DNA of 64,000 nt from Haliotis rufescens (lineage: Eukaryota). The position numbers and the translations under genes are program-made. Shown here in pieces: positions 29,057-59,307 of this stretch (within the stretch, counting starts at the first letter, position 1; every line of letters starts with the position of its first letter). The stretch spans positions 9,858,001 to 9,922,000 of the forward strand of contig NW_025964383.1 in NCBI RefSeq assembly GCF_023055435.1, written 5' to 3'. The notes under the pieces are model-generated. The model was not told the DNA's origin and ran no database searches. It saw nothing but the letters and a program-made list of their open reading frames with translations.

Positions 29057-32000
29057 TCAGTGGTTTTTCAGTGGTCGGTTTTCTTCAATGTTCTTAGGGG
29101 AGCTCTGTGACTTCATTCTGTTCGCCCGACCTCTGACGAGCGGTACACAAAGTAGAAATATTGCAGCTATGAAGTTACATATTCCAATGTAGGTGAAACA
29201 AAGGTTGTATGAACTGGTCAGGTCACGGATTGTCCCTGTAACAACAATACGCAGAACATTAGTGTCACAACGTTGTCAGATTTGAACAAAGATTTTAAAC
29301 GTTCCATTTAACAATAGTTTATACAGCCTAACATGACAAGTTGTGGTACTAAATAAAATTGAGACGTGGGTCAGTAATTAAACGCCTAACCCAGCAAAAT
29401 AATTTTCACACTTCTGACTAAAAAAATAACTCGGGTAATAATGACAACATCTTCTGAGACAAGGCAGTTAATTGTCTAAAAAGTCCAGTTTCCACCCAAG
29501 CTGACCAGTGGCTATACCGAGTTATGTTTTTTCTATGTCCCTCATATTGACTGATTGGACTTCACCTCTCAAGACGACCCGATCAAGTTAATCGAAGAAA
29601 AGTCTCACATTTCCTGTCTCAGACACCAAGTGCATGTGGAATGTAGCACGTTGAGAGGTGTAGTGCACGTTGATTATAAACATGAACAAATTAGAAAGCA
29701 TCTGCCGACCCCCAGACGGTACACGTGCTTTGCAAATTCTTGAGTGGAGCAAACACGACAGTCGCCATGTTATTTACGAACATGATGTCGATTTTGTAAT
29801 GCGATTTTAATTGCTAATCAAACCTTTAAACGTCCAGCCTACTTCGGCAAGGTTGAAACTGGACTGTTTTAGTCAGTAATGGCCGTTGCTTCGGGAAGAT
29901 GACAAGCAATCAGACACTGTGCCCGACCGTATTTACAACCGAAGTAAGTTGGCCTATGACGAGCACTGGAGATTTGATTTTAGACCCGGATTCCAAACAA
30001 TGTGGTGAAACAACAGAAATCTACACCAATGTCTGACAATGAAAGCAAGTGATATATGTGGCAAAATTATTTCTGAAGAAATCAATCCTAAAACATAGCA
30101 TTGGGAAAGTCTTGAAGCACTTGACCTCGGACAGCACGTTGAGGGGGTGGTATATCAGATTTACTATTGTCACTCAGACTCGGTTGTGAGCAGACGCATA
30201 TTGTTTTCTTGGAACCAAACGCTCAAAGACCCTATATTAAACACATGATTTAATCATTATGATCCAATTCATCCAACTAAAAAAAACATCTATGAAATGC
30301 CATGGCCAGCACCCAGTCCTGACCTTTCCACCATTAAACACGTCTGGACGTCATTGGCAGACGTGTGCGCCAACATCACAATCCACCGACCAGTCTAAAT
30401 GAACTCGGTGCAGCTCTCACTGATGAATGGGACAACACGAGCCAATCTGACATTGGTCGACATCATCAGAAGTTCTGCCTCGAATAATTCGTTCATTTCT
30501 GGCCAACAGAGTTGGTTGTTCCCGACATGAGTGCAAAGCGCAAAATCAAATTTCGAATTTTAACCTCTAACCTCATGAACGACATCGTACGCCACTATCA
30601 AACAAAAACAACTAGAACCCACTAGATGTGATCGCTTACCCCTTAATAGATAATATTATATCAATCCCATTTGCCAATATCATACAGGTGAGAACATATG
30701 TCTTGAAGATTCACACTGTCTCCTCCTATATTTGCATAGTATATAATGAAATTTATTATCGGACATATTTGCAGTTCAAAACAAAATGATTTAACTTGAA
30801 TCACTTGCTAATGGCTGCTTGTTGGAATGGACCAATATTTCTTTAATGACATTCATAATATTTGACCCTTACAGACAATCTTATATTAAGAAACTGACTT
30901 CAATCTGTTTTGTTTTTGGATGTAAAAACCTAAAAACTGATGTGAACATTGTAAATTCGAATAGCTTCAGGAAAACTTCTTAGTATTTTATCAGTATCAC
31001 TAACAGATTGTAGAGATATTCGGTGACATCGTTCAGCGCAAGGATGCATCACAAGCCCCATCCACCTTATTATCAGTCAATATATTTCGGTATTATGCAT
31101 GGTTTGCCAACAAAATTTCATGGAAGCATTTACAAGTTATTATAAGAGGGTATAGACGGTTCGTGCTTGTGTACCAGCTGTATTCCCAAACGTTTAGCAA
31201 TGTTACTACAATGTACGTTTGACAGTGCTGTTACACAAGTAACTCCATGAATGCTGATGGTCTATTTCAGCATAACATTATTTAACATAAAATACAGAAT
31301 GAGGATCTTACCCATAATCGGATGCGTCACAGACAGGGCTAAACCGTGGAACACAGCTATAAATCCAAGAACCTTCGCCATGTATTCAAGTCCCATGAAG
31401 TCGACAATGGCAACAGGAATAAGGCAGTAATAAAAACTGCCAAAGAGTCCGACAATCACGGAGAATACGACAAGAAGAGCATACGTATTGAAAAAATAGA
31501 CAAACTGTGTTGCCATTCCAGATATCAGCATTCCAATAACCATCAGATGATTTACTTTGATGTATTTGAGATCGGCAACGAACCCGACAGCAAGTCTGCT
31601 GAAGAAATCCAGAACACACGACAAAGTCAACAAATATGCTGCATCTGCTTGTGAGATGCCCTTTTCATTTGCCAGGGCAGGAAGGTAGACTCCAAACAAT
31701 CTAAATATTATGCCAAAGTGAACAAATGCAACTATCAACAGAAACATTGGTTGCTTAAACAAGGAAAAGTCAAATGCTGATAATGCTCGTTTCACATACA
31801 TGCCACAACCTCTGGGTTCTTTTGATTCCTGTTCATTGTCAAATGATTCAGCATTAACTTCTGTAATATCCACCACTGACATTGAAGTCAAATCTAGGTT
31901 ACTTGTGTACAATCTAATCTGACTTTCTGAGAGGGAATCTACTTGTGATTCAATGCTGACAACTGATTCTGGTCTTGTACTTTTGCAGATAATCGTACTT

Positions 32001-33963
32001 ATTTGTCCCTTTCCCCTATTTGATTGACTCGCAAATGAGACCACTGCTTTTCCACCATTAATACTAGTTAGTTCCTTGACAGAACGTGCTCCAACCACAT
32101 CATGTTCATTTCCATGTTTTTCATTGCCTTGTCTTTGGTCATGTTTTCGCCCTTCACTCATGACAGATGGGTGTTTTGGTATCCTTTTATGAAAGAAACT
32201 TAATGGTCTAAACAAAGCAGCCCCGACCCACATGTTCATTGTCAGCCCTGTTAGGATCAACATACTTCCTCTGACACCATATTCATCTAATAAGAAACGA
32301 ACGAGGGGTGGGAAAACGCTGCCCCCAATACTAATTCCAGACATGGCAACTGCTGTGGCAATGCCTCTTCTCTTTTTGAAGTACTTTCCGATCAATACCA
32401 ATGCTGGAGCATGAATCATGGAATGCCCTATACCTGAAAGTAAATTATTCATTATCATATATCATTAATGTTTTGTTCAAGATACTTACAGATTTACATG
32501 ATTACAATATCCTTCAATACAGCTTACACAGTTATATTATATATGCCACATCATGCTTTAATCTGATCATGTCTATGAAGCTTTATGTCTCTTTCTCATG
32601 CCAGAATTCTATACTCGATTTTCCAGTATATTTCTAAATGTTCAAGACTTGCATCACTTTGTTACGCCATTGTATGACTGAACTATTGTTATAGAGTGTG
32701 TTCAACTCATTCAAACCTCCAATAAAATCTTACATTTAGGAATAAGCTGCAGGAGTAAACTGTTTATAAACATATATGTAAAGATAATGATCATATAAAG
32801 TGACCTAATGTTACAAAATCCCATATGGATGCATTTACTTGAGCCATCAATTATTTTCTGTGCTATTATGGATTCGTGAACACGTATAGATTACGCACCA
32901 GTGAGAATGCTGTGAGTGCAGATGAGGTATGTAATACTGGTGGCGAAAACCCCTGTCAGCATTCCTACAACTGATATAGTCCCACCAAGAAGTACAGTCT
33001 TTCTCTCCCCAAGCAGTTGCAGAATTATGTTCATCGATAGGAGAGCTGTTGACATACAGAACATGGTTGTGTCAAAATAGGGAAAATTAGTACACTGTAC
33101 ATATATATGTAATTTGTACGACCACAAGGGTCAGAATATGTTATCAGTAGAGATGATATACGAGAGGGATTATTTTTGTCCATGATATGAAAGTATCATT
33201 GTAACAATATATTTATGGCCATTTTGTATCAGTATTCTTCAGTATTCAAGAACACAAGGATGTCTTTCTTTACCACAATAGTTTACATTTGCACGTACTG
33301 TTTAATACTCACAACTTATACTGTACGTCCCTGCCATCACACCCATGAACAAGGTTGTTTTTGTGGCAGATGCCTCGAATTCTTCCAAGTATGCCACAAA
33401 GAATATGGCAACGGACCGTCCATATCCAGCCAGTAACATAACATTCAGGAAACTCCCTGGAGAAGGTCAAAATACAAAATGTGGTATCAGTGATTACCAA
33501 GGCGTGTTTTTTCATAATTTAATTGCTTTCAAAATGCAAGAAGCAGAAACACATTTAATCCAGAATTCTTAATCTTAAGATTCCATACCCTATAGAATGA
33601 CAGAGTACTATATCTTATACTCTGTTATCTGGATGGATGTAGAAATATGCACAATCGATCACCTGCTAACACAAACCAAGCCCATCCACGATCTATAGGT
33701 ACACCATCATCCTCTTGCTCTGGTTGACTGTCATCTGGTAGCTCGCCATTACTACCATCATGCAACATGTTCTGCTTCTCGGCATCTCCCACAGCTACAG
33801 TCCCACCTTCTTCTGTCACCGTTCCCAACAAACTGTCTTCCCCATCAACGGCCTCTCCCGTCTTCGGTATGAACAGTTTTCCGTTGTTTGTACTTGGTGT
33901 CATAGCTTGATGTTCGCTTCTGCTAGCTTCGTCCTCCCGACACGTTTTTGAATCTTGTGTCAT
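29057..33963 (-). CDS. Gene D, SLC16/MCT family transporter, 630 aa; exons 33963-33663, 33456-33313, 33045-32899, 32433-31312, 29235-29057
   Basis: GT-AG phase-1 junctions, 1893 nt open frame; motifs PIDRGWAW, YFKKRRGIA, LDFFSR, GTIRDLTSSY. Confidence 0.92.
29448..29901. mobile_element. Older copy of the same MITE family, intron 4 of gene D
   Basis: Ends CATCTTCTGAGACAAGG...AAAGTCCAGTTTCCACCC and GAAACTGGACT...TCGGGAAGATG. Confidence 0.75.
30220..30745 (+). mobile_element. Old Tc1 transposase 3' remnant in intron 4 of gene D
   Basis: Around 30296-30348 the sequence reads MPWPAPSPDLSTIKHVW; boundaries approximate. Confidence 0.65.
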
Positions 33964-34444
33964 TTTTACTCTGTCGATAGTATATCGGACCTATATAATT
34001 TATGAAACTGCATTTACACAATACCAATGTGACATTTTCCTAGAAAGTGAATGTGGCTGCTTGTAACTATCAGTGATTGTGTGAATGTAGTTTAAGGCTG
34101 CAAAAAACGAACAAACATTCCATATAAATAACTGTGAACAGTCAGTATGGACGGTATGGTGATTGAAAACACGAAGAACGATCCACGTCATCAAGTCTCG
34201 ATGGTAAACAATCAACCAAGTAACAGAGCCTTTCCACCTGATCCCCATGTCAGTTTCTACCACAACACATAAGGTACTTTCACCTATTATGATCCGAAAT
34301 CCGTACAAGCCTGTATGTTACACGAATATATAGCAACGCAAGTGTCCGAGACAATGCATACCTGTCATCTTCACCACGATGATATTGTGTAAACATTTAC
34401 ATACGTATCTATGCTTGTGTTTGGTCACAAATTATCTTCACAGA

Positions 34445-34609
34445 GTGGGTGAGTGAGTGAGTATGGCTTTACACCGCTTTTAGCCATATTCCAGCAATAT
34501 CACGACGGGGGACAGCAGAAATTGGCTTCACGCATTGTACCCATGTCGGGAATCGAACCCGGGTCTTCGGATTGACGAGGAAACGCTTTAACCACTAGGC
34601 GACCCGACC
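34445..34609 (-). mobile_element. Family-1 SINE upstream of the gene D CDS
   Basis: Homologous to 14274-14446; same position in genes F and G. Confidence 0.85.
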
Positions 34610-36338
34610 AGACTGGAAATGTTGAAAACGCACGCACTTGAACTCTTTTGAGAGTGTCTTCCAAAACTGGATATCTGCTCACATGATTTGTTCACTTTAT
34701 ATATTGTGAGCATCGTTTATATAATTTACGTCGACTCCGTGCGTAGAGTAAAACGTTTCGTATTCATATTATTATTATTAACAAAGTAAATCATATTTAG
34801 TACTTAATTAACTCTTACATGCGCATTGTTTTATAGCATAGTAATATACGAGAGGATATTTTCTTTTCTACCAAACTCATGAAAACGACAAAATGTCACT
34901 GGTATAATCACAAACGGGTAAATTCCTGAGAAAGAACAAATTGCACGTCACAAGACGCCACGAATCTTTGTCTAGTATAACGGTACTTGATACAAATTTA
35001 CCTTATATAACACGAAGCTCACCTGTATGTGTCGTCAAAAAGTCCTTTTTGTTCCGCCACGCCTCCACTGATGAAAGAGCTCTGACAACGCTGAGCAAGA
35101 TGTCCAACGTGCTTTTTATAGGCAAACTGTTTGCCCTAGTGTCCGATAAGCCTTAGTGGAAATATTTGTGTGATGGAGATTAAGGTCGCGTTAAAGACTA
35201 TTCACTCACATAGACTCCGATACAGTCCTTGTCCATAGGCATTGTAATACCGAGCGCCAGGCGAATGACGAAAATATATAGCCATTATTTTTTTCACGAA
35301 CTGTAATTGAAATCAAATTCTGTCTATAATATCATAAGAAGAGCATCCAACTAAATACACATGCCTTACAATCTAACCATCATTCGCATTTGAAAGGCCA
35401 TTTTTTAAAAAGGGTGCGTTCCCCATATAAGTTACCCTCCTTCCCGAAATTCGACGCCAATCCATACGTTGCCTTTGCAAATATTTAGTATACGGTTATA
35501 TGACATTTTGGTCGGGCTTGCAATCATGATGAGTAGTTACTTCGGCCAATATTGATCCTATTGCAGTGAGTCAGTGAGTAAGTATGGTTAGCACGGGGAG
35601 TTTCGTGAATTTTGTCTGTAGGATACTTACATGCAGTCTAGCCACGTTGTCTCGAATACCAGTTGTGTGTATCTCACAGTATGGTACCTGCAAATTATAT
35701 TTAATTACTATTTTAACCTGGATGTGTCGAATCCTGGTTAACATAATTCAAAGTCAAAAGAATTCAAAAGACATAAGTAATTACCACGATAAGATGTTTC
35801 ATTACATCATACGTCATACGATTATATTGAAGGAACGAGGAGGCGGCAACTTCGTCACGGTAGCGTATACATGTCAAACAGCCATCGGTGACCAAGGGAG
35901 GGGTCGTGTGATGTCCGCGATGACTCTCACAATTATTTCTCTCACACAATCGACTGCAGGACGTCGACAAACACTCTCGTCAGGTTATATGACGTCGATA
36001 AACGAGCGTTTTAGATGTAAATATTAACTCATTTCTTGCAGCCTTAAGACTGTTTCAGAGTTGTTCACACACATTTGTAATATTGAATGTGATCTATAGA
36101 TAAAGGTAAGAGAGAAAACAGTTTCAGTGCCATTCATAGTCAAGTAATATTGTTAAAATTTATCGCCGTTACTATTCTGTTGTAATTGTTTCAGGGCCAT
36201 TCATTTCTATATTATAACATTTCATCTGCATCTCTGAATTTCTGAATAAAACGATCACAACCCCACAGCGAGTCATGTTTCACCCTTGGCGCTGAACCAG
36301 CTGTAACACATGCATACTGATAAATCAAATAAATTTGA

Positions 36339-36622
36339 GTGAGTGAGTGAGTGAGTTGGGTTTTTACGCCCTTTTAACAGTATTCCAGTTGTATCGCGGC
36401 GTGTCAGCTTAATGTGGGAGGAAAGCCCGAAGTGATGCAGGTCTCAGACCTTTACCACTTCGGTGAAACCCACGAGCACGGGTATGGTGTTGACAAACCT
36501 AGAAACAAAATTGGGGCAAACCGGGATTCGAACCCACAATCATAGGTTTCTGGCGTGCCCAAGGGACGAAACTCTGCACAGCGAATCGCTGCGCCTTAGA
36601 CGACTGGGCCACCCGTGCCCCC
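36339..36622 (-). mobile_element. tRNA-derived SINE (family 3) with widely spaced A/B boxes
   Basis: 13-bp TSD CAAATAAATTTGA (36326-36338 / 36623-36635); A box TGGCCCAGTCG, B box GGTTCGAATCC, (TCAC)n tail; degenerate relative at about 3575-3770 (+). Confidence 0.85.
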
Positions 36623-36654
36623 CAAATAAATTTGAAAGGTTGTTTGGCCCTCTA

Positions 36655-37880: not shown

Positions 37881-37892
37881 AGAAAAAACATT

Positions 37893-38621: not shown

Positions 38622-38694
38622 GTTGTTACAGTAGATGCAACGAGTGTTCATGAATCCTCTCAGTTCCACCGATTCTCTATGAGATAACTCAACA

Positions 38695-41600
38695 TGGGGT
38701 GTGTTAGGCTTGATGAAAGGAGGTGCCATGAAAGCCAAGTGTCTTCGCCATGTACTGCAATCCGAGGAGGTCTACAATTGCGACAGGAATCAGGTAGAAG
38801 TAGGATCTCGCAAACATACCGCACACTACAGAATATATCAGCAATGTGACATAAGAAACGAGAAAAAATGAGAGATGAGTTATAGTTCCAGTAGTTATAA
38901 GACCAATCACCATAATCCTTGTAACTCGCTTGATTTTCGTGTCTACCAAGTAACAATAGAAAAATCTACTGAGGAAATCTATTGCTCCAGATATAAGCAG
39001 AAATATTGCAGCGTCACTCTGACTTATGTCTTTTTCTTTAGCCAACGCGGACAAATATACCGGCACAAGGCCTATGGTTATTCCAAAGAAAAAATACAAA
39101 ATAACTATTAAAAGCACTGGCTCCTTGAACAATGAAAACTCCAATCTTGAAAGCACTTTCGTCATGTACAATATCGCATTCTTCGAAGTGACAGTATCCT
39201 TCTCACTATTTTTATCAACTTTTGGAAAAGCTGCATCTTCATTTTCTACACTTAACACCAACACTGAACCCAGCTCGGCATCACTGGCATACACATTGAA
39301 GCTTGTTTGACTGTCTGTGGTCTGCTGATTCTTCTTACCCGTGTAGGCATATCTGGTAAATCTGTATTGGGGAGCGAATACCCTGGAAGGGGAGACCTTC
39401 CCGGCTTTTCCGATGTAAAGGAACTTAGACTTTGAAACTTTTCAGGCTCTAAATGAACGCCGATTTACGTTTGTCATTTGGTGCATGTCCGTTTTGTTTT
39501 GTGTTTGCTGTTGTCTTCATTTTTTTGTACGACTCTAGTGGTCGGTTCACCAGTCCACCCAACCACATTTTCATCGTCATTGCTGTTAGTATTATCATAC
39601 TGCCCTGTACTGCCCTGGTGGAACACGCTACTGCCTGTCCTCGTCGTTCGTTGAAGTCGTGCCCAATCAGAACAATAGCTAGGTCATAGATCATCGAGTA
39701 TTCCACACCTGTGTATATAAACATGCATCATTAGAACAAATGAAGTGGAAAAAAGTACGATCAAATAGAAGCACAGGGAATGTTATCAATTTTCCACCTA
39801 CATCGGCGGAGACGCGAAAAGTCACATTTTACAAATGTGGGCATTCCTTCTGAAATCGTCCACATTAATACATTTAAGGACAAAAGAAAAATTATAACTG
39901 ACCAATGTCATTTTAGAAATTACAGAATATATAGGGTAGGTGGAAGATTAGTGATTGTGTGTTATTGTTGTCACTTTAACTATTAATCCTCAACCTACTA
40001 TAAAGAAACTGTGCACGGAGAAAATATATTCTGGATTGAAATACAACACAGCAAGAACAAAATGATGCAGACGCTGTAGCAGCTGAATGATCGGACCACA
40101 AGAAAATGGCAACGGGACCTGAACAACATCTGTTACGATGACGTCAGAAGATCAATATGGAGTAGGGGGTCATGACCACCCTGTGCGTGAGTCACAGCAG
40201 TGCATCGGCGACGCATGGAGTCCACCAAATGGGCATGGAAGGCCTGGGGAATGGCCTGCCATATCCTCCTCAAATCCTGTGCCAAGTCACGGACGTTATC
40301 TGGAGGATGTGGAAGACGACGCAGACGGCGCTCCATTTCATCCCACACATGCTCTATTGGGGAGAGATATGGAGAATTTGCAGGCCATGGCAGTAACATG
40401 ACATTGTTATGGTGAAGGAAATCCATTGCGACCCTAGCCGTGTGAGGACGAGCGTTGTCCTGATGAAATGTCAATCCCGGGCCATGACGTTGCAGGAAAG
40501 GAATGACCACAGGCCTCAGAATCTGATCTCTGTAGCCAACACCGGTGAGATTGCCCTGAACAACCACCAATGGGGTTCGGTGCCGTGCTGTTATCCCACC
40601 CCAAATCATCACAGAGCCACCTCCAAAACGATGCCTCTCCACAATACAGTTGCGTGCATAACGTTCTCCCAAACGCCGGTAGACACGTTGGCGCCCGTCA
40701 CTGTTGGAAAATGTTGAACCTCGATTCATCTGTAAAGACAACATTTCAACACCATATTCGAGGTTGGCGAACATGATTTCGACACCATCTTAGACGGTTG
40801 ACTCGATGACGGTGTGTCAGGATGGGACGTATGGCAGGGCGTCGTGGTCGAATCCCGTACTGACGTAAACGATTCCTGACAGTGTTGGGATGGATACGGC
40901 GCAGTCCAGGAATTGTCTGGGACGTCGTTACTGACGTTTGGAACATGTGTCGGAGATGTTTAACTCGAATCCATCTGTCCTGTCTAGGCGTTGTTACTCG
41001 GGGACGTCCTGAACGTGGGTGGTCGGCAACGTTATTTGCGTTCTGATAACGCCTCACCAATGCCGATATCGTGTTACGATGGCATTGGAAATGTGTTGCC
41101 ACCTGTTGTTGCCTCATTCCCGCTCGGATCATTCCAATGCCTTCATGACGCTGTGCAGCTGTCAATCTTAGCATGATTTGCTCGTGATATGCTTGTGTCT
41201 GCGCCAGAGAAGTTTTGAATTTTTGAATGGCCACAGATCATGCTTTCCAAAGTGCTAGCGAATTTTGAGTTGCACATGCTGTGTACAGCTGCACAGGATG
41301 CACGTGCAGTAACACATTGCACGTCCATAGGCCCCCATCAATGACGTTATATCGCATGGCACGTGCATGAGCGTTTGAATGTCTCCAATAATTGCTGTGT
41401 TCAAACCTATATTTCATATGTGGACGGTGTGCCCTTACATCTATATTTTCTCCGTGCACAGTTTCTTGATGTGGCTAGTATATATTCTGTACCATATTCA
41501 TTACAATAAAACAAAGAAGTCGTTATCCATAAATTGTGTCCACTTTGTCATCCGCCAACTTCTAAGAAATGCCTTTCAAACAAATAGTATCCGTTTACAT

Positions 41601-43504
41601 ACACGTTTGGAAATGGCTGTTTTCGGATTAAATGGGTGCGGGACTAACGATGTTTTGTTGCAAGAGAGTGTGCGGATGCACTAACCTCTTAGCCACTGAC
41701 CCCGTCGGAGGGTAACTTATGTGCACCTAATTTTATCAGTTAAGTGAAGGAAAATGATATAAGTAGCCTTTTCATTTCATCTGCTGACCTCTGGTTACAT
41801 GTAATCACATAACCTTTTGTTTGCAAGTATGTATATTTTATTATTTGCAAACAACTTCCATTGTTTGTTGGCTTTCGTTCATTATATGTGAATTGGGTTT
41901 TGCAACAACATTTTATGTACGACTTCGTCATACCGGTCAACTCAATGCGGTCGAGAAGCTCAAACTGACGAAAAAACGTAGTTTTATGTGGCAGAATAAA
42001 AATTTAGTAAATTTGTTTGTCGTTATTGTCGGTAGCAGTAACTGTCGGAAACGTTGGTAAAATGTGAAATGCTGTTGTGGAAGAGATTAGAGTTATCTAC
42101 CGCTGCTTTGTGACAAACATGACCGAATGGAAGCATTTAACAGTATCAAAATTCAAGACATTGGTGATGCTTTAACTCATGTTAAGCCATGTTATTTGTA
42201 CACGAATTTGTCCCATGGTATTGCCTTGTTATATTGCAAACCTACCACTAATTCATTGATTATTCATTGATCTTGAGTGGACACTTACAGATTCTGCGTT
42301 TTATTTGGGAAATCACCTAGTACCACAAGGTCGTAGAAATTAATATGGTGTTTCACCGCCAAGCAGTAGTTCTTGGGTCGGCAAATAAGCGCAACGACAC
42401 TGCCAATTGTGTCACAGAAATATGATGCATGTGATGACATAAACCATTTCTTTATGAATATGATGTGTCATCTATTTGATGATAAGCACAGTACACAGCA
42501 ATATTCCATCGATATAATGGTTGTTTTTAAACAATCGATACTGGCACAGACAAACCGGTAGTAAGTGCCTAGATCCACACGGTGACAAGCAATCAACTAA
42601 ATTTAGACTTACCGATGAACACACTGTGTGTACAAATCAGGTAAGTAATGCTTGTGGGGAAGATAGCCATTACCGTTGCTCCAAGCATCACTGTCTTCCT
42701 GACGCCAAGGTCTACCAGGACATGCATGGATATGAGCGCTGGAACAGGAAACCGTATTATGTGGATGCTTTCAATACCTATGCGGATATCCACTACGATA
42801 CACATACAGGTGATACCTAAAATACAACACATGTGACCAACCATGTAATAAAGAACCTTATGGGTTAAAAATCACAATTTGACACAACTGTGGTATCTTA
42901 GGACTACAAGAAACACAGTTTATAAGCTTCGATTCATATTCATTACAGAGATACATTACTTCAAACATTTCATTTTCTGCTAAGTCCCATTTTCAGACTT
43001 AAAACTGTTTATAGAACGATAGCAGTTTTTAGATACCATGTCTTATTGATCGGAAGTATGCAGGTATACTGATATGGTTTGGAATAATGTTTCATAACAT
43101 TACGAACAAACGAGAGAAAAAAAAAAAGTTTTATAGAGTGAACACATGTACACAAGGTGATTTTCACGAAATTACGTTGACGTCAAAAGTTTTCTTATAA
43201 AGTCACAGCATAAATGTACTATAAACCCGCTAGCATCATCCATGACCAGCCTTGATCTATGGAGAGATGACTGTCATCAGTTCCATCCGTCTGGACATCC
43301 GTAGTTTTTGAAACAGGCGTCTCCACGTGTCCCTATTCACCGACGTTGCGTTGGTGTATCTTAGCAAGCCTGTTCCGGACAAATGCATCCTCTTCTTCAT
43401 TGCTGTTTGCTCCAATAATATCGATGCTAAAATCCTCCACCGAGGCGTTCAGGTCCGCCTGCAGTCCCACACCGGTCCGCTGGCAACCCTTCATCATAAT
43501 CCAT
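38695..43504 (-). pseudogene. Pseudogene E, decayed copy of gene C; remnants of exon 1 (43504-43227), exon 3 (42738-42613) and exon 4 (39708 to about 38695); exons 2 and 5 deleted
   Basis: 8-bp frameshifting deletion in exon 1 near 43441; 21 bp missing from exon 3; exon 4 broken into ORFs 39449-39724 and 38704-39294; flanks are colinear with gene C. Confidence 0.9.
39996..41480 (-). mobile_element. Second, distinct Tc1-family transposon with frameshifted DD34E transposase (ATG 41174 to about 40152), in intron 3 of pseudogene E
   Basis: Inverted repeats AAGAAACTGTGCACGGAGAAAATATA (40003-40028 / 41442-41467), outer part of the left TIR partly deleted. Motifs RSGRPR, FTDESRF and HQDNARPH...SPIEHVW with 34 residues between D and E. 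Confidence 0.9.

Positions 43505-45507: not shown

Positions 45508-45511
<4 letters not shown>

Positions 45512-45576
<65 letters not shown>
45512..45576. repeat. (TA)n microsatellite downstream of the gene F stop
   Basis: Direct; only about (TA)4 at the paralogous site in D. Confidence 0.95.
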
Positions 45577-45578
<2 letters not shown>

Positions 45579-45784
45579 CTTCCCGGCGGCATATGAATAC
45601 ATCAATAGTTGTATCATTTGAGTTATAATTATTATAACATAAAATGCCAGTTTGACAAATTTAAATATAAACATAACACTCGCACATAATATAAAGATAC
45701 GAGTGCAATGCACAGACATGTGGCATGTGTATCAGTAAAACAGTTTATTCAACGTTTATAGATGCACAACACGTTCATGATACA

Positions 45785-48700
45785 TCAGTTGCCTTTCAGT
45801 GGTCGGTTTTCTTCAATGTTCTTATGGGAGCTCTGTGACTTCATTCTGTTCGCCCGACCTCTGACGAGCGGTACACAAAGTAGACATATTGCAGCTATGA
45901 AGTTACATATTCCAATGTAGGTGAAACAAAGGTTGTATGAACTGGTCAGGTCACGGATTGTCCCTGTAACAACAATACACAGCAGGACATTAGAGTAACA
46001 ACGTTGTCAGATTTGAACAAAGATTTTAAACGTTCCATTTAACAATAGCTAATACAGTCTAACATAACCAGTTGTGATACTAAATAAAATGGATTTAAGT
46101 AATTAAACGCCTAACCCAGCAATATAATTTTAACACTTCTGACTAAATTATTAACTCGGGTAATAATGACAACATATTCCGAGACAAGGCAGTTAACTGT
46201 CTATAAAAGTCAAGTTTCCACCCTAGCTGAACCAGTGGCTATAACGAGTTATGTCATTTCTATGTCCCTCATATTGACAAATTGGACTTCACCTCTTCTA
46301 TAACTTGCATTTGCTTCGGTGTCTAGTCAAGACGATCCTATAAAGTTAATCGAAGAAAAGTCTCAGACACCAAGTGCATGTGGAATGTAGCACGTTGAGA
46401 GGTGTAGTACCCGTTGATTATAAACATGAACAAATTAGAAAGCATCTGCCAACGCCCAGACGGTACACATGCTTTGCAAATTCTGGAGTGGACCAAACAC
46501 GACAGTCGCCATGTTGTTTACGAACATGATGTCGATTTTGTTATGCGTCAAACGTTGTTCAAACGTCCAGCCTACTTCAGTAAGGTGGAAACTGGACTGT
46601 TATAGTCAGTAATGTCCGTTGCTTCGGGAAGATGTGATGACAAGCAATCAGACAAATCACTGTGCCTGACCGTATTTACAACTGAAGTATGTCAGCACAT
46701 TCGTATATTAAGACCTGACTTCAATCTGTTTCGTTTTTGGATGTATAAACCTAAAACCTGATGTGAACCTTGTAAATTCGAATAGCTTCAGACAGACCTC
46801 TTGGTATTTAATGAATATCACCAGATTGTAGTCGAAATTGGTGACATAGTTCAGCGCAAGAACGTATCGCAAGCCCCACCCACCTTATTATCAGTGAATA
46901 TATTTCTGTATTTTGCATGGTTTAGTGTATAGACGGTTCGTGCTTGTGTACAAGCTGAATTCCCCTACGTTGATCAATGTTACTACTGTATGTACGTTTA
47001 ACAGTGCTGTTGAGCCAATAACTCCATGAATGCTGATGGTCCATTTCAACATAACATTAATAACATAAAATACAGAATGAGGATCTTACCCATGATCGGA
47101 TGCGTCACGGATGTGGCTAAACCGTGGAACACAGCTAAAAATCCAAGAACCTTCGCCATGTATTCAAGTCCCATGAAGTCGACAATGGCAACAGGAATAA
47201 GGCAGTGATAAAAACTGCCAAAGAGTCCGACAGTGACGGAGAATACGACGAGAAGAGCATACGTGTTGAAAAAATAGACAAACTGTGTTGCCATTCCAGA
47301 TATCAGCATTCCTATAATCATCAAATGATTAACTTTGATGTATTTGAGATCGGCGACGAACCCGACAGCAAGTCTGCTGAAGAAATCCAGAACATACGAC
47401 AAAGTCAACAAATATGCTGCATCTGCTTGTGAGATGCCCTTTTCCTTTACCAGGGCAGGAAGATAGATTCCAACCAATCTAAATATGATGCCAAAATGAG
47501 CACATGCAACAATCAACTGAAACATTGGTTGCTTGAACAAGGAAATGTCAAATACTGATAATGCTCGTTTCACATACATGCCACAACCTTTGGCTTCTTT
47601 TGATTCCTGTTCATTGTCAAATAATTCGGCATTAACTTCTGTAATATCCACCATTGACATTGATGTCAAATCTAGGTTACTTGTGTACAATCTAATCTGG
47701 CTTTCTGAGAGGGAATCTACTTGTGATTCAATGCTGACAACTGATTCTGGTCTTGTACTTTTGCAGATTATTGCACTTGTCTGTCCCTTTCCTCTGTTTG
47801 ATTGACTCGCAAATGAGACCACTGCTTGTCCACCATTAACACAAGTTAGTTCCTTAAAAGAACATACTCGAACCACATCATGTTCATTCCCATGTTTTTC
47901 AATGCCATGTCTTTGGTGATGTTTTCGCCCCTCACCCATGACAGATGGGTTTTTTGGTATCCTATTATGAAAGAAACTTAATGGTCTAAACAAAGCAGCC
48001 CCGACCCACATGTTCATTGTCAGTCCTGTTAGGATCAACATACTTCCTCTGACACCATATTCATCTAATAAGAAACGAACGAGGGGTGGGAAAACGCTGC
48101 CCCCAATACTAATTCCAGACATGGCAACTGCTGTGGCAATGCCTCTTCTCTTCTTGAAGTACTTTCCGATCAATACCAATGCTGGAGCATGAATCATGGA
48201 ATGCCCTATACCTGAAAGTATATTATTCATTGTCAAATATAAATTGATGTTTTCTTCAAGATAATGTCTATGAAGCTTTATGTCTCTTTCTCATGCCAGA
48301 ATTCTATGCTCGTTTTTCCAGTATATTTCTAAATGTTTAAGCCCTGCATCACTTTGTTACGCTGTTGCATCACTGAACTATTTTTTACAGAGTGTGTCCC
48401 ATTTATTCAAGCCTTCAGTGAAATCATACATTTAGGAATAAGGTGCAGGAGTAAACAGTTTATATGCATATATGTATAGATAATGATCATATAAAGGGGC
48501 TTCAAGTTAAAAAATCCCATATGGATGCATTCACTTGAGCCATCAATTATTTTTTTGTGCTATTATGGATTCCTGAACATGTATAGTTTACGCACCAGTG
48601 AGAATACTGTGAGTGCAGATGAGGTATGTAATACTGGTGGCGAAAACTCCTGTCAGCATTCCTACAACTGATATTGTCCCACCAAGAAGTACAGTCTTTC

Positions 48701-49686: not shown

Positions 49687-50157
49687 TTTTACTGTGATAG
49701 TATATCGGACCTATATAATTTATGAAACTGCATTTACACAATACCAATGTGACACTTTCCTAGAAAGTGAACGTGGCTGCTTGTAACTATCAGTGATTGT
49801 GTGAATGTAGTTTAAGGCTGCAAAAACAAACATTCCATATAAATAACTGTAAACAGTATGGACGGTATGATTATTGAAAACACGAAGAACGATCCACGTC
49901 ATCAAGTCTCGATGGTAAACAATCAACCAAGTAACAGAGCCTTTCCACCTGATACCCATGTCAGTTTCTACCACAACACATAAGGTACTTTCACCTATTA
50001 TGATCCGAAATCCGTACAAGCCTGTATGTTACACGAATATCTAGCAACGCAAGAGTCAGATACAATGCATACCTGTCATCTTCACCACGATAATATTGTG
50101 TAACCAGATAATACGTGTCTGTGCTTGTGTATAGTCACAAAGTGTCTTCACAGACTA

Positions 50158-50324
50158 AGTGAGTGAGTGAGTATGGCTTTACACGGCTTTTAGCCATATT
50201 CCAGCAATATCACGACGGGGGAAACCAGAAATTGGCTTCACACGTTGTACCCATGTCGGGAATCGAACCCGGGTCTTCGGATTGACGAGGAAACGCTTTA
50301 ACCACTAGGCTACCCGACCGCCCC
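50158..50324 (-). mobile_element. Family-1 SINE upstream of the gene F CDS
   Basis: Paralogous to the 34445 copy. Confidence 0.85.
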
Positions 50325-53300
50325 TTATAGTCTGGAAATGCTCAAAATGTACACACATGAAGAGAATGTGAGTGACCTACATATATATATATTCAGTGAC
50401 TGACGGCCACACACACACTCTCTTATCGCCAAGCCGATAACACACGTGGTACAATCGAAATGGCGGCCTACTGTTAGGGTCAGAGATTAACAATACCTCG
50501 TCAGCCTAAAGTAACAAGCTCGGACATAATCGTTGCAGTTGTTTGTCCGTCACAATGCATTGCTCTAGTTGTTACTTTCAGCTTTTTGAAGGTTGCAGTA
50601 TCGTTGTCTGTTTCATGAAATCAGTCAAGTTTATTGTATTGTCTTTTGATTGAACTCTTTTTAGAGTGTCTTCCAACACTCACGTGATTTGTTCACTTTA
50701 TATATTGTGAGCATCGTTTTTATAATTTACGTCGACTCAGTGCGTAGAGTATAACATCTCGTATTCATATTATCATTATTAACAAAGTAAATAATATTTA
50801 GTTCTTTACTAACTCTTACATGCGCATTGTTTAATAGCATAGTAATATGCGAGAGGATATTTTCTTTTCTACCAAATGTCACTGGTATAATCACAAACGG
50901 GGTAAATTCCTGAGAAGGAACATATAACACGTCACAGACACAAGACACCACGAATCTTTGTCTAGTATAAAGGTACTTAATACAAATTTACCTCATATAA
51001 CACGAAGCTCACCTGTATGTGTCGTCTAAAAGTATTTTTTGTTCTGCCACGCCTCCACTGATGAAAAAGCTCTGACAACGCTGAGCAAGATGTCCAACGT
51101 GCTATTTATAGGTAAACCGTTTGCCCTAGTGTCCGATAACTGGAAATATTTGTGTGAAATGGAGTTTAACGTCGCGTTAAAGACTATTCTCTAAAAAAGA
51201 CTCCAATGCAGTCTTTGAACATCGTCCTTGTAATACCGAGCGCCAAGCGAATGGGAACAATATATAGCCATTATTTTTTTCACGGAATGTAGTTGTAATC
51301 AAATTCTGCCTATAATAGCATATGAATAACATCCAACTAAATACACATGCCTTACAATCTAACCATCATTCGCATTTGAAAGGCCGTCTTTTTAAAAGGG
51401 TGAGTTCCCCAAATAAGTTACCCTCTTTCCCGAAATTCGACGCTAATCCATACGTTCCCTTTGCAAATATTTAGCATACGGTCATATGACATTTTGGTCG
51501 GGCTTGCAATCATGATGAGTGGTTACTCTTGCCAATATCGATCACATTGCAGTGAGTCAGTATGGTTCTACCCCGCTTGTGCCATATTCCAGGAATAACA
51601 CGACGAAATGGTCTTCACACATTGTACCTGTTTCTGTAATGGGACCCTGACCTTCGACTTAACGAGCCAACACAAAGGGCCACACTACTAACCATGTAAC
51701 AAAACAAAATGTTTAACGGTTTAACACTATTGTCCTTCAGTGACCACACGAACTGGTAACTAGTATTAAAATTAATTATATATGTACGTCCATCATTTGG
51801 AAAGGTTTTCACGAATTTGTATGCTACGTGGGTTAAAGGGATAGCTTACAAGGTTTTACAAAGGTCATCGTCTCACTGATTCATTGGACCAGTTGATGGC
51901 CATTTCGAGTCCACTCTCATAGCATACATACATGGGATGGGGTCGAAATTGATATGACTCCAGATCATATATCAAGCATAACGAATGTGCCACTGAACCT
52001 GTTGTGGAAGGTTGCGTCCTTTAGAATCTAGCTTTGGTTGAATGAATTCCAGGTTGCAATTACTTCATACACCATTCCTTATTTCGGATTAAAGTGTTTT
52101 CACTGTACAACAGTTTATAACTGGGTATTGGCAGGACGTCAACTTGTTGACCAAAATTATTCCCATGGTGTCCAAGTGCGGTATTCTTTGATGCTTGGTC
52201 CGCTGGGCTGTTGTTGTTTTAACTGGGAAACCATCTTGTTCTCGAGAGAAGTTACCATGAGCGTGAGTAAACTCGCAAAATGTCATGCCGTGAGTGATGT
52301 TTCATATTGTTTTAGTGAGCGATATGATTTGAGAATATACCCGTTCAATGTTTGACTGTCATGGCAGATTTTACGCTGTATACAACAATCAACAACCGTA
52401 TGCTATGAGCATCCAGACATTCTTACATTTGTGTGCCATATTAACGTAATAGAAGATTTCAAATCCAACGTGACTGTTTCTGGTATGAACTATACAAATT
52501 GGTTGTAGATGGTAATTTCTACTTCGATGTTAAATTTTTGTATGAAACAAGTTGGTCAAGAGTTTCTGAAATTGTCATTTTATTGAAATTAACGAATGAA
52601 TTTTATATTCATGGTTGCGTAAAGTTGCGCGATGTCACCAACCTTATGATCTTTTTTTTCGTAATGACTTGGCTGACGTTATTAACGACCTAAAGTGGGG
52701 TATTACCATTCTGAGTACGATCACACGAGGTTTGGTACACGATTACCTAGAGTGAGATGGGTGTGTATGTATGTTGGGTGGGGAGGAGAGTGGGGCTGCA
52801 TGTATGCGGGTATGAGTATGGATACATGCAGCAGATTGGAATATATCGATGATTTTGTTTTCAATTTTAGTGTTTCTATTATATATTTATACATCGTTTA
52901 ATATTCTTAAAGCCTTTTGTGTCTCATAGGTCATGTTGATCGGGCATTGTAATATCTACCTAAAATGTATATGACACTTAAATAAAGATCACTATCTTTT
53001 TCTTCTTCCGTAACCAAACATCTAACTTGGTAGGCACTTAATTATTTACTCTTTGCTTTGGCGACGACCTCCTTCTTACTCATGACGACATCTTTTAATG
53101 ATTATTTAACACAAAGTGTATGACGAAATAAAACTCCTTATTCCAGATTTATGACAATATCACTTGGATTAATCGTTCCAAATCGTTTCTGACAGATATG
53201 ATGACTAAAAAAAGAGACAAACATAAAGTGTGTTGAAAGGAGGAGGTAACATCAGGTCCCTTTTTCTGAAAAAAAACGAACAAAATTTAAAGTTCTGATA

Positions 53301-54776
53301 AATATTAATCAAATTTAATACATAATTAATGCTCTATGGTATCAATTTCCCTAAGTCGACAGGCACGTGTGATCACATTTTGGATTCAGAAGGAAACCGA
53401 AACATCCACAAGATTTCAGTAATTCAGTCCAATTGAGCAATGTAAGCAATTTGCAGATAACACACAGAAGCCGCATTGTGATATGTGGTCAAGAGGCAAA
53501 CATCTTCTGAAAAACATCTTCTGAAACATCTTCCAAAAGTAAAGTTCAATATGGTAAAGTTTATGCTTAGTTTATATAACAAAGCTCTTGATGTTTAATC
53601 AGATGGGTATTTACACGAAACGTATCATAAAACCTGGCAATGGGAAGTTAATTATAATCCAAAAAAATACACGAGGTACGAGTCAAAATAGGGAATTGCA
53701 TCAAACATTATTTTTATACTGATGCGTCAAATTTGGAAATGTCCTCCACAACTCTACCATAAAACCTAAAAGCTTTACTGAGACCTTGAAACAAACAAAC
53801 GTAAACATCATTATCATTAAATGTGGCACAAGCGATTTAATACGCAGCAATTCTTAACACGAAACTTATATTATAAAACCTGGTATAAGCTGGTATGAAT
53901 GACCTGTTTGTTTGCAACATCAGCAAATGTCTTTGGCGTTTTCGGAAGAAGTTGATACTCTGAAAGTAAAAATTTATCGCATTGTCTTGTACTTGCTTCA
54001 TTAACTATTTGCGACTCATAAAAACTGCCTGAATGACCGTTTCAACACACATACATGATTATCTCTGTCTGTCAAGAGTGCTTAACTTTCAACAGTCAAT
54101 TATATTGGAGGGTTTGTTGTTTTTTTTGTTTGAGAAATGAGACCATGGGGGAGTATGAAACGGCAAGTGACCTTTAATCTATTCGTGGCTCCTTAGTAAT
54201 GTGGGTAGGTGGTCTAGCTATATAAGAAACATTACATGCACATACCTGGCTCCGTACTATAGCCTCCATTGTATTTTGAGCAAATGCTAAAATATTTCCG
54301 AAATGACATTTCAGCGATTTTTAATTCTCACTTGTCCATTAAAGCAATATGACCTTACTTTATCCAATTTTGTGCACAGAAGTATAACGTCATCCATTAT
54401 TAATGATAATGTATCACAAACTGGTACAAATACGTCACCCAAACAATAGGCTGTCTTAAGTGATGGTTCATTCATCAGTTACACAGAGTAATATATAGAA
54501 TACTCTATTATGGAGTATGCTACAACATTCATTCTCAGCTAATAAATAACACTGGACACGTATATGGGTTTCCCAATGACAAATGAATACATCAAAAGTG
54601 GTATTATTTGTGTTATACATATTATAATACATAAAATGCCTGTTTCACAAATTTAAATATAAACATAACACTCGCACATGATATAAAGATACGAGTTCAA
54701 TGCACAGACATGAGGCATGTGTCTTTGTAAAACAGTTTATTCAACGTTTATAGATGCATAAAACGTCCTTGATACA

Positions 54777-57700
54777 TCAGATGCCTTTCAGTGGTCGGTT
54801 TTCTTCAATGTTCTTATGGGAGCTCTGTGACTTCATTCTGTTCGCCCGACCTCTGACGAGCGGTACACAAAATAGAAATATTGCAGCTATGAAGTTACAT
54901 ATTCCAATGTAGGTGAAACAAAGGTTGTATGAACTGGTCAGGTCACGGATTGTCCCTGTAAAAACAATACGCAGCAGGACATTAGAGTAACAACGTTGTC
55001 AGATTTTAAACGTTCCATTTAACAATAGCTAATACAGTCTAACATAACCAGTTGTGGTACTAAATAAAATGGATTTAAGTAATTAAACGCCTTACCCAGC
55101 AATATAATTTTAACACTTCTGACTAAATTATTAACTCGGGTAATAATGACAACATCTTCCGAGACAAGGCAGTTAATTGTCTATAAAAGTCCAGTTTCCA
55201 CCCTAGCTGAACCAGTGGCTATAACGAGTTATGTCATTTCTATGTCCCTCAGTGTATGAACTGGTCAGGTCAAGGATGGTCTCTGTAACAACAATACGCA
55301 GGACATTTGTGTCACAACGTTGTCAGATTTGAACAAAGATTTTAAACGTTCCATGTAACAATCGCTATTACAGACTAACATAACCAGTATTGGTACCGAA
55401 GTTAATGGAGACGTGGGTCAGTTATGTACGCCTAACTCGGTAATAATGACCCGGGTAATATGTCCTTAAAAGTCCAGTTTCTACCCTAACTGAACCAGTG
55501 GCTGTAACGAGTTATGTCACTTTTATGTCCCTCATATTGACAGATTGGACTTCACCTCTCATATAACTTTCATCTGCTTCAAACAAAATGTCGGTGTACA
55601 GTCGATCCGAGCAAGTTAATCGAAGAAAAGTCTCACATATCCTGTCTCAGACACCCAGTGCATGTTGAATGTAGCACGTTGAGCGTGGAGTACACGTTGA
55701 TTATAAAGCAAGTTTGGAAAGCATCTTCCGACGTCCAGACGTTACACATGCTTTGCAAATTCTGGAGTGGAGCAACACGACAGTCACAATGTTGTTTACG
55801 ACCATGATGTCGATTTTGTAATGCGATTTTGATTGCTAATCAAACTTCAAACGTCCAGCCTACAAACGTCAGTAATGTCCGTTGATTCGGGAAGATGTGA
55901 TGACAAGCAATCACAAATTGTGCCGGAACGTATTTACAACTGAAGTATGTTGGACTATGACCAGCACTGGTAATCTGATTTTGGACCCGTATTCCAAACA
56001 ATGTGGTGAAACTACAGAAAACTACGCCAATGTCTGGCAATGAAAGCAAGTGATGTGGCAAAAATTATTTCAGAAGAAATCAATCCTAACACATAGCATT
56101 GTGAACGGCATGAAGCACTTGACCCTGGACAGCACGTTGAAGGGGGTGGTATATCAGATTTACTATTCTCACTCAGACTCGGTTGTGAGCAGACGCATAT
56201 TGTTTTCCTGGAATCAAACGCTCAAAGACCCTATATCAAACACATGATTTAATCATTATGATCTAATTCGTCCAACTGCAAAACATCCATGAAATGCCAT
56301 GGCCAGCACCCAGTCCCGACCTTTCCACCATTAAACACGTCTGGACGTTATTGGCAGACGTGTGCGTCAACGTCACAATCCACCGACCAGTCTAAATGAA
56401 CTCGGTGCAGCTGTCACTTATGAGTGGAACAACACGAGCCAATCTGACATTTGTCGACATTATCAGAAGTTCTGCCTCGAATAACTCGTGCATTTCTGGC
56501 CAACAGAGTTGGTTGTTCCCGGCATGAGTGACGTTGACTGCAAAGCGCAAAGTGCAAATTTCGAATTTGACCCCTGACCTCATGAACGACGTCGTACGCC
56601 ACTATCCCACACCAACCACTAGAGCCCACATGATGTGATCGCCTACCCCTTAATAGATAAGATCATATCACTCCCATTTGCCAATATCATACAGTTGAGA
56701 ACATATGTCTTGATGACTCACACTGTCTCCTCCTTTATTTGCATAATATATAATGAAAATTATTGTCAGACATATTTGCAGTTCAAAACAAAATACTTTT
56801 AACTTGAATCACTTGCTAATGACTGTTTGTTGAAATGGGCCAATATTTCTTTTTAATGACATTCATAATATTTTACCATTACATACTTTTTTATGTATTA
56901 AGAACTGTCTTCACTCTGTTTCGTTTTTGGATGTATAAACCTAAAACCTGATGTGAACATTGTAAATTCGAATAGCTTCAGACAGTTCTTAGTATTTACT
57001 CAATATCACTAACAGATTGTAGACGAAATTGGTGACATCGTTCAGCGCAAGAATGCATCACCTTATTATTAGTCAATATATTTCTGTATTATGCATGGTT
57101 TGCTAACCAAATTTCATGGAAGCATTTACAAGTTATTATTAGAGTGTATAGACGGTTCCTGCTTGTGTAGAAGCTGTATTCCCTCACTTTTATCAATGTT
57201 ACTACTATATGTATGTTTAACACTGCTGTTGAGCTAGTAACTCCGTGAATACTGATGATCCATTGCAGCATAACATTAATAACATAAAATACAGAATGAG
57301 GATCTTACCCATGATCGGATGCGTCACGGATCTGGCTAAACCGTGGAACACAGCTATAAATCCAAGAACCTTCGCCATGTATTCAAGTCCCATGAAGTCG
57401 ACAATGGCAACAGGAATAAGGCAGTGATAAAAACTGCCAAAGAGTCCGACAATCACAGAGAATACGACGAGAAGAGCATACGTGTTGAAAAAATAGACAA
57501 ACTGTGTTGCCATTCCAGATATAAGCATTCCAATAACCATCAAATGATTTATTTTAATGTATTTGAGATCGGCGACAAACCCGACAGCAAGTCTGCTGAA
57601 GAAATCCAGAACACACGACAAAGTCAACAAATATGCTGCATCTGTTTGTGAGATGCCCTTTTCCTTTGCCAGGGCAGGAAGGTAGATTCCAACCAATCTA

Positions 57701-59054: not shown

Positions 59055-59114
<60 letters not shown>

Positions 59115-59275: not shown

Positions 59276-59307
<32 letters not shown>

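What the first reader, a model, noticed from the sequence alone, without database searches (positions are those of the whole stretch)
31312..57450. Near-identical paralogs differ at TM10/TM11 substrate-pocket positions
Seen: the TM11 motif HGx(A/S)-X has X = M (A, B, C), L (D, CTG), T (F, ACA) and R (G, AGA). TM10 reads GSFY-N/Y/H/H-CLIP in A/D/F/G and ASSY-F-CLIP in B/C. Established: human MCT1 F367 and S371 in TM10 line the substrate site, and a small residue at rodent F360 admits larger substrates such as mevalonate. Inference from a by-eye gapless alignment anchored on G...DxxG: the variable N/F/Y/H site equals S371, and the F367 position is Gly or Ala in all copies. This suggests a panel of enlarged-pocket transporters diversified for different, bulkier substrates (for example dietary algal metabolites or pigments; speculative).
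Basis: partly seen in the sequence, partly recalled or inferred. Interest (0 to 1): 0.72.

Follow-up and report, generated by a model that had tools for sequence, protein, structure and literature searches.

The report
Abalone transporter copies retuning substrate cavity
These are tandem copies of an abalone monocarboxylate-type transporter gene, and the four youngest copies each carry a different amino acid at one predicted cavity-lining position, the same way in two species, so they likely prefer different small acids, though no substrate is known.

Summary
The window lies in a tandem array of about 21 SLC16-type transporter copies in an abalone (Haliotis). The mapping holds: Gly/Ala = MCT1 F367, the variable TM10 site = S371, and the TM11 X = V402, one turn beyond E398 on the ligand-facing side (inferred; no coordinates were available). 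A fourth young copy, H, lies just outside the window and keeps the ancestral Ile. Leu, Thr, Arg and Ile are each kept in the four H. cracherodii orthologs, and a spliced Thr-type and Ile-type transcript were seen. K38/D309/R313 equivalents are kept, so proton-coupled anion transport is likely. Corrections: the roomy pocket is ancient, not special (small residue at F367 in 85 of 118 outside homologs), and the S371 site changed only once among D/F/G/H. Selection support is modest: none family-wide; in young clades M8a-M8 p=0.018 but M1a-M2a p=0.11. The top sites map to V402, P37, Y34 and L124, and gene conversion weakens the test. D, F and G also gained an Arg at F278. Verdict: probable substrate retuning in a known family; substrates untested.

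The parts
29057..33963 (-). Gene D, SLC16-type transporter, 630 aa; exons 33963-33663, 33456-33313, 33045-32899, 32433-31312, 29235-29057; F278 site Arg, S371 site Tyr, V402 site Leu
   Evidence: H. cracherodii ortholog P0004 96.5% identical with the same residues
45785..49686 (-). Gene F; exons 49686-49386, 49154-49011, 48742-48596, 48211-47090, 45963-45785; F278 site Arg, A306 site Tyr, S371 site His, V402 site Thr
   Evidence: equals P0032 over 544 aa; F-type spliced contig in run X1
54777..60230 (-). Gene G; exons 60230-59930, 59699-59556, 59005-58859, 58430-57309, 54955-54777; F278 site Arg, S371 site His, V402 site Arg
   Evidence: equals P0034 over 544 aa; AF2 model matches MCT1/MCT2
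31334..31336 (-). D codon 564 CTG (Leu), MCT1 V402 position, TM11
47112..47114 (-). F codon 564 ACA (Thr)
57331..57333 (-). G codon 564 AGA (Arg)
31427..31441 (-). D TM10 codons 529-533: Gly (MCT1 F367) to Tyr (S371); same stretch in F 47219-47205 and G 57438-57424 ends in His
57697..57699 (-). G codon 442 AGA (Arg), MCT1 F278 position in TM7; also Arg in D (31702) and F (47480), Gly in H and in the H. rubra and H. asinina proteins
57592..57606 (-). G TM8 Asp473 ... Arg477 = MCT1 D309/R313 pair; kept in all intact window copies
11..1932 (+). Gene A, exons 4 (11-1093) and 5 (1763-1932); exons 1-3 lie left of the window; S371 site Asn, V402 site Met
   Evidence: equals P0008 over 528 aa
5893..12287 (-). 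Gene B (from the modelled last 43 nt of exon 1 to the stop); F367 site Ala, S371 site Phe, V402 site Met
   Evidence: equals P0015 over 548 aa
17284..23751 (-). Gene C (from the modelled last 43 nt of exon 1 to the stop); same TM10/TM11 residues as B
38716..43269 (-). Copy E, B/C-like pseudogene with deletions, a frame change and a stop; no intact TM11 motif

Best explanation
D, F and G are young tandem copies of an abalone SLC16-family transporter that keep the Lys/Arg, Asp and Arg of MCT1's transport core and have likely been retuned, by a few substitutions on the predicted cavity wall, to prefer different organic anions. Shown: one ancestral gene (single copy found in H. rubra and H. asinina, Ile at the V402 site, Gly at the F278 site) became four (H, D, F, G) before H. 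rufescens and H. cracherodii split; H kept the ancestral residues, the D/F/G ancestor gained Arg at the F278 site and Ala at the Y34 site, and the V402 site then changed to Leu (D), Thr (F) and Arg (G). Inferred: the protein works by alternating access; TM8 Arg binds a carboxylate or similar anion and TM8 Asp takes the proton, as in MCT1; the cavity is wide because MCT1's Y34, L66, Y70, F274, L281 and F367 are Ala, Ser or Gly here; the number of Lys/Arg on the cavity wall rises from 2 (H) to 3 (D, F) to 4 (G), which would favour larger or more highly charged anions. The substrates are unknown.
For: Register to MCT1/MCT2 gapless through TM7-TM12 with the 142-sequence profile; AF2 model of G (pLDDT 78.3, pTM 0.74) has MCT1 and MCT2 as best structural matches, target TM-score 0.87-0.89. 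Position 564 is i+4 of the E398 site and i+7 of the T395 site; by a constant offset of 36 these equal SfMCT C362 and F359, which touch the ligand (passages of PMC6573034; offset is my inference). It has the highest entropy in TM11 (3.6 bits) and 11% strongly polar residues among outside homologs, against 0-1% at 558, 559, 562, 566, 570. It is the only one of 544 columns with four residues each fixed in its ortholog pair. Five young clades pooled: M7-M8 p=0.014, M8a-M8 p=0.018, top sites 564, 113, 110, 201 (posterior 0.93-0.98). The quartet alone picks 564; the other four clades independently pick 113, 201, 110 = MCT1 P37, L124, Y34. 18 literature pocket sites carry 16 nonsynonymous changes, more per site than the other 357 (permutation p=0.017). 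Six sites have 4 or more residue changes against a null mean of 1.55 (3 of 400 simulations). Arg/Lys occurs at 564 in 0 of 118 and at 442 in 1 of 118 outside homologs. F and G share species-specific residues at 10 columns yet stay distinct at 564 in both species. Spliced F-type and H-type contigs in run X1.
Against: No selection signal over 16 family members (M1a-M2a LR 0, M7-M8 LR 0.33). The stricter M1a-M2a test is not significant in any young-clade run (p=0.11, 0.21, 0.20, 0.16), and M7-M8 is not significant in either subset (p=0.21, 0.086). Posteriors are naive empirical Bayes, from my own code, with branch lengths only rescaled. Signs of gene conversion can inflate such tests and were not simulated. 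Pocket N/S ratio versus other sites is borderline (Fisher p=0.059 in the preferred TM7 register). Paralogs do not differ at pocket sites significantly more than orthologs do (17 of 128 versus 6 of 75 differences, p=0.18). One of the top sites, 417, is a loop-edge residue. V402 is in none of the ligand-contact lists I read, and a search for it found no paper. MCT1 S371G leaves lactate kinetics unchanged (PMC13265630). The H. cracherodii G ortholog has Ser in place of the R313-equivalent, which may mean decay.
Confidence: 0.55

Rival explanations
1. Relaxed constraint and drift: the copies are largely redundant (dosage or tissue-level copies), and cavity-wall positions vary because a wide cavity tolerates many residues.
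For: These columns are hypervariable across the whole clade (entropy 3.1-3.7 bits at 110, 113, 201, 442, 564). Family-wide tests are null and M1a-M2a is never significant. A four-residue column arises in 8.75% of null simulations. The array has broken copies (E; the match at C605:9759548 with 2 stops; a frameshifted copy on C168). Two species that split recently share paralog residues by descent alone.
Against: Omega is 0.43 in the quartet's membrane domain, so the copies remain constrained. Arg at 564 and 442 is nearly absent elsewhere in the clade. Independent clades repeat changes at the same cavity sites beyond the null.
Confidence: 0.3
2. The substitutions tune gating, pH dependence, transport direction or sensitivity to dietary inhibitors while the substrate stays the same.
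For: V402 lies one turn outward of the core site, towards the outer vestibule (inferred). In MCT1, F367Y shifts affinity and direction, and S371G lowers inhibitor potency but not lactate transport (PMC13265630 passages). In SfMCT, charge changes at the outer end of TM7 (R256) alter the pH response (PMC6573034 passages).
Against: The top sites in other young clades (Y34, P37 positions) are direct ligand contacts in MCT2 structures (PMC12894981 passages). At the S371 position SfMCT F335A shifts preference to a bulkier acid.
Confidence: 0.12
3. D, F and G are alleles or haplotypes mis-assembled in tandem, not separate genes.
For: The window holds an exact 3,171-bp tandem duplicate (21307-24477 = 24483-27653) that may be an assembly artefact.
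Against: The copies are only about 87-91% identical over long DNA stretches including introns, and H. cracherodii has four separate proteins with the same diagnostic residues. One DNA run of another label holds Thr-type and Ile-type contigs together.
Confidence: 0.03

Closest known systems
Human MCT1 (SLC16A1) and MCT2 (SLC16A7)
   Same: Best sequence and structure matches in the PDB; 12-helix MFS fold; K38, D309, R313 and M151 positions kept (Arg for K38 in D/F/G/H).
   Different: About 18-20% identity; Y34, L66, Y70, F274, L281, F367 replaced by Ala/Ser/Gly; F278 is Arg or Gly; S371 is His/Tyr; E398 is His; long loop between TM6 and TM7. Below the TIGR00892 cut-off (209.5 versus 586.1 bits).
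Mevalonate-transporting MCT1 F360C mutant (Mev)
   Same: Small residue at the F367 position (PMC7228944 and PMC6573034 passages).
   Different: The mutant has Cys; Ala at this site inactivates lactate transport in SfMCT and mammalian MCTs. Here the small residue is the clade default and is often paired with an aromatic at the S371 position (F, Y or H in 59 of 118 outside homologs).
SfMCT (Syntrophobacter fumaroxidans lactate transporter)
   Same: TM10 F335 (S371 position) sets specificity and TM11 F359/C362 touch the ligand, the helix face that carries residue 564.
   Different: Bacterial; 14-16% identity; keeps an aromatic at the F367 position.
MCT8 and MCT10 (thyroid hormone and aromatic amino acid carriers)
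   Same: SLC16 members whose pocket is remodelled for bulky substrates; D424 replaces F367 (PMC12078798 passages).
   Different: They lack the D309 and K38 equivalents and are not proton-coupled; the abalone proteins keep both.
Abalone MFS/SLC duplications on chromosome 1 (Hirase et al., PMC12627906)
   Same: Reports chromosome-specific accumulation of MFS-domain genes including monocarboxylate transporters in abalones (passages).
   Different: In the passages read there is no residue-level, selection or substrate analysis; the authors state that no functional validation was done. Whether this array lies on that chromosome was not checked.

Membership tests
MFS (Pfam PF07690) | Score above the gathering threshold; two six-helix halves | tested here: met
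   133.9 bits versus 33.4; AF2 model is all-helical and matches MFS folds
SLC16 / MCP family | Closest solved relatives are SLC16 proteins | tested here: met
   13 of 13 PDB sequences passing the threshold are MCT1, MCT2, MCT8, MCT10 or SfMCT; top 19 Foldseek ranks likewise
SLC16 / MCP family | N-terminal signature before TM1 and the YFxK/RRxLA motif before TM5 (motifs recalled) | tested here: met
   PIDRGWAW aligns with MCT1 PPDGGWGW, and YFKKRRGIA with YFYKRRPLA
Proton-coupled MCT1-4 type | K38, D309, R313 triad | tested here: met
   Arg114, Asp473, Arg477 in D/F/G/H; Ser at 477 in the H. cracherodii G ortholog
Proton-coupled MCT1-4 type | Y34 and an aromatic at F367 forming the lactate/pyruvate site | tested here: not met
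   Ala/Val at 110 and Gly at 529
Proton-coupled MCT1-4 type | NCBIfam TIGR00892 cut-off | tested here: not met
   194-210 bits for F, G and the D ortholog versus 586.1
Proton-coupled MCT1-4 type | Measured H+/monocarboxylate symport; basigin or embigin partner | not testable with these tools
   needs uptake assays
MCT8/MCT10 type | Asp at the F367 position, no Asp at the D309 position, Asn at the K38 position | tested here: not met
   Gly529, Asp473, Arg114; definition from PMC12078798 passages
Adaptively diversified paralog array | Site class with omega above 1 concentrated on functional sites | tested here: inconclusive
   M8a-M8 p=0.018-0.038 in four runs; M1a-M2a p=0.11-0.21; family-wide null

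The most novel reading that the evidence does not exclude
The H/D/F/G quartet is a step-by-step record of a monocarboxylate carrier being rebuilt into importers of seaweed sugar acids in North Pacific kelp-eating abalones. Two new arginines (F278 and V402 positions) added to an already wide cavity would bind larger or more charged anions such as alginate-derived DEH or KDG, uronates or sulfated fragments. That would supply an animal uptake step for the alginate pathway, whose reductase HdRed is known from H. discus hannai (reference listing in PMC8778563). In the H. cracherodii G copy the TM11 arginine may even have taken over from the lost TM8 arginine.
Probability: 0.1. Interest if true: 0.8.

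Novelty: new member of a known kind. Interest (0 to 1): 0.45.

Why it matters
Most invertebrate SLC16 carriers have no known substrate (own knowledge). Four copies that are over 90% identical, of known ancestry, and differ at a handful of cavity positions are a ready-made swap experiment for learning how the SLC16 pocket sets specificity, and point to an untested position (V402). If the substrates prove dietary, the array links a gene expansion to seaweed feeding in a farmed animal. The family and the general pattern (tandem transporters diverging at pocket sites) are not new.

Tried and rejected
1) 'Gly/Ala at F367 marks these paralogs': rejected; G/S/A in 85 of 118 outside homologs. 2) 'S371 is the diversifying site of D/F/G': rejected; one change, not in the selected class. 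3) Family-wide site models on 16 of 18 gene models (two most distant dropped): no signal. 4) Paralog-versus-ortholog contrast at pocket sites: not significant, p=0.18, and 0.22 without site 564. 5) No residue-level superposition was possible: the fold tools returned scores, not coordinates, so the orientation of 564 is inferred. 6) Literature searches for V402 or TM11 contacts found nothing; searches for abalone or mollusc MCT expansions gave only the chromosome-level paper among the listings seen (20 of 91 listed). The 2021 Cell MCT1 structure paper and all supplements were not read and may list V402. 7) Run search: no RNA holder on record; RNA status of X1, X2, X3, X9, X10 and X13 is the tool's guess, though their contigs skip or end at the modelled introns. 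No D-type or G-type spliced contig showed in the three such runs laid on the TM11 stretch; contigs cannot show absence. 8) Earlier findings near this place: none. 9) No complex prediction was run, as no binding claim is made.
Full report
Setting. The window is G000:C605:9858001-9922000. Proteins identical to my gene models are labelled Haliotis rufescens monocarboxylate transporter-like. A search with the C-terminal part of D gave 55 matches in the genome, 21 of them within C605:9.59-9.94 Mb. I fetched 20 stretches and built 18 gene models without internal stops. Four lack a terminal exon, one has a misplaced acceptor, and all but D start at the last 43 nt of exon 1. I did not model E, the matches at 9759548 and 9593355, or the C168 copies. 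The window holds A (part), B, C, D, F, G and pseudogene E; H and I follow just to its right.

Observation. The fourth close copy H has ATA (Ile) at the TM11 site. The single H. rubra and H. asinina relatives found also have Ile there, His at the TM10 site and Gly at position 442 (numbering of G, P0034). So Ile is ancestral, Thr and Arg are each one base away from it, and Leu is two. H. cracherodii has four proteins that match D, F, G and H with the same residues. Position 564 is the only one of 544 columns with four residues each fixed in its ortholog pair.

Mapping. A 31-sequence profile aligns TM10-TM11 to human MCT1 without gaps, and a 142-sequence profile does so for TM7-TM12 against MCT1 and MCT2. 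Reading the numbers off: 529 = F367, 533 = S371, 557 = T395, 560 = E398, 564 = V402, 442 = F278, 473 = D309, 477 = R313, 114 = K38, 110 = Y34, 113 = P37, 201 = L124. TM7 carried gaps in the shallower alignments, so 442 is less certain. The AF2 model of G has mean pLDDT 78.3 and pTM 0.74, with low confidence only in the N-terminus and the central loop; MCT1 and MCT2 are its best matches. The tools gave no coordinates. That 564 faces the cavity is inferred from two things. First, SfMCT F359 and C362 contact the ligand (passages of PMC6573034) and map to T395 and E398 by an offset of 36 that holds at both ends of TM11 (my reading), putting 564 on the same face one turn outward. Second, 557, 560, 564, 567 and 568 are the variable, partly polar columns of TM11, while 558, 559, 562, 566 and 570 are hydrophobic.

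The pocket. At 18 positions named as ligand contacts in passages of PMC13265630, PMC12894981, PMC7228944 and PMC6573034, summed side-chain volume is 2731 A3 in MCT1, 2118-2159 in D, F and G, and 2056 in H (D and H scored through their H. cracherodii orthologs). All 114 fully scored outside homologs, of 118, are also below MCT1 (median 2318). The F367 position is Gly, Ser or Ala in 85 of 118, and the S371 position Phe, Tyr or His in 59 of 118. A wide pocket is therefore the ancestral state of this clade; the abalone copies sit at its roomy end. The transport core is conserved: Lys/Arg at K38 in 103, Asp/Glu at D309 in 97 and Arg/Lys at R313 in 111 of 118, and in all intact window copies. What is unusual is charge: Arg at 442 in D, F and G and at 564 in G, against 1 and 0 of 118 outside homologs.

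Selection. I wrote codon site models (F3x4; 375 membrane-domain codons). Over 16 family members omega is 0.145 and no test is significant, though the three fastest sites are 110, 564 and 442. Pooling five young clades (D/F/G/H, A/I, B/C and two more; 13 genes) gives M1a-M2a p=0.105, M7-M8 p=0.014 and M8a-M8 p=0.018, with 564, 113, 110, 201 and 417 above 0.9 under M8. The quartet alone gives M8a-M8 p=0.038 and only 564; the other four clades give p=0.023 and 113, 201, 110; M1a-M2a and M7-M8 are not significant in either subset; dropping the loop-edge codons 417-425 leaves p=0.027. Parsimony counts give 16 nonsynonymous and 10 synonymous changes at the 18 pocket sites against 135 and 175 at the other 357 (permutation p=0.017; Fisher p=0.059; across three TM7 treatments 0.006-0.026 and 0.008-0.059). 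Site 564 was not in that list. In 400 simulations under the nearly neutral model a four-residue quartet column appeared in 35, and six or more sites with four or more residue changes in 3. The paralog-versus-ortholog contrast was not significant. Position 533 does not appear among the top sites in the young clades. Overall: modest, repeated but not decisive support.

Gene conversion. F and G share species-specific residues at 10 columns (118, 285, 293, 301, 313, 326, 343, 453, 507, 511) but keep paralog-specific residues at 7 (377, 394, 439, 460, 470, 556, 564) (read). This suggests sequence exchange after the species split that spared 564, and it also cautions the tests above.

Expression. 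In four runs guessed to be RNA, contigs skip the modelled introns of G's gene structure (introns 2, 3 and 4 in 4 of 4 runs, intron 1 in 3 of 4) and carry H-type letters (decoded). On the TM11 stretch, run X1 holds an F-type contig (Thr564, Leu556) and an H-type contig, both running on into exon 5 sequence; X3 and X10 show the H type; DNA-like run X16 shows Thr and Ile types. The organisms are coded and tissue is unknown.

Mechanism. Shown: family, gene history, residue states, kept transport core. Inferred: proton-coupled alternating access with the anion held by TM8 Arg; a wide, His-rich cavity; preference shifted by changes at the Y34, F278, S371 and V402 positions. I put substrate divergence at 0.55, drift at tolerant sites at 0.30 and tuning of gating, pH or inhibitor response at 0.12. 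A dietary sugar-acid role is a bold guess (0.1): abalone has a DEH reductase (reference listing in PMC8778563), and the kelp diet of North Pacific species is recalled, not from a call.

Known context. Abalone MFS and MCT duplications are reported at chromosome level without functional work (passages of PMC12627906). My searches listed no residue-level study of this array; subscription papers and supplements were not seen. It is a new member of a known kind, with a concrete and testable lead.

Noticed in passing
window 21307-24477 and 24483-27653: Exact 3,171-bp tandem duplicate covering exons 1-3 of gene C; either a very recent duplication or an assembly artefact.
   Followed up: partly
window 40133-41237 (-): Tc1/mariner-type transposase in two frames (HTH_Tnp_Tc3_2 and DDE_3) inside pseudogene E; a similar-looking fragment at 18442-18998 (+) in the last intron of C, whose first frame had no family match.
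   Followed up: partly
protein P0005 (H. cracherodii G ortholog), position 477: The R313-equivalent, Arg or Lys in 111 of 118 outside homologs, is Ser in the copy that carries the new TM11 Arg: decay, error or a relocated anion-binding arginine.
   Followed up: no
G000:C605:9744-9808 kb (loci L008-L011): A sister subfamily carries Lys at the MCT1 M65 position and varies at the Y34, P37, M69, L124 and F278 positions with charged residues (Asp, Lys, Arg, His), a second case of cavity diversification.
   Followed up: partly
G000:C168:7006-7024 kb (loci L017, L018): A partial A/I-like copy and a frameshifted H-like copy in the same order as I and H on C605; dispersed duplicate or alternate haplotype.
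   Followed up: partly
proteins P0003, P0033, P0038: Database gene models are faulty here: D appears only as a 385-aa piece, I and H are fused into a 1,274-aa protein, and a similar fusion exists in H. cracherodii.
   Followed up: partly
window 54926-55534: A local duplication just upstream of G exon 5 (about 69% identity) beside a stretch with very high contig depth (55074-55260), probably a common short repeat.
   Followed up: no
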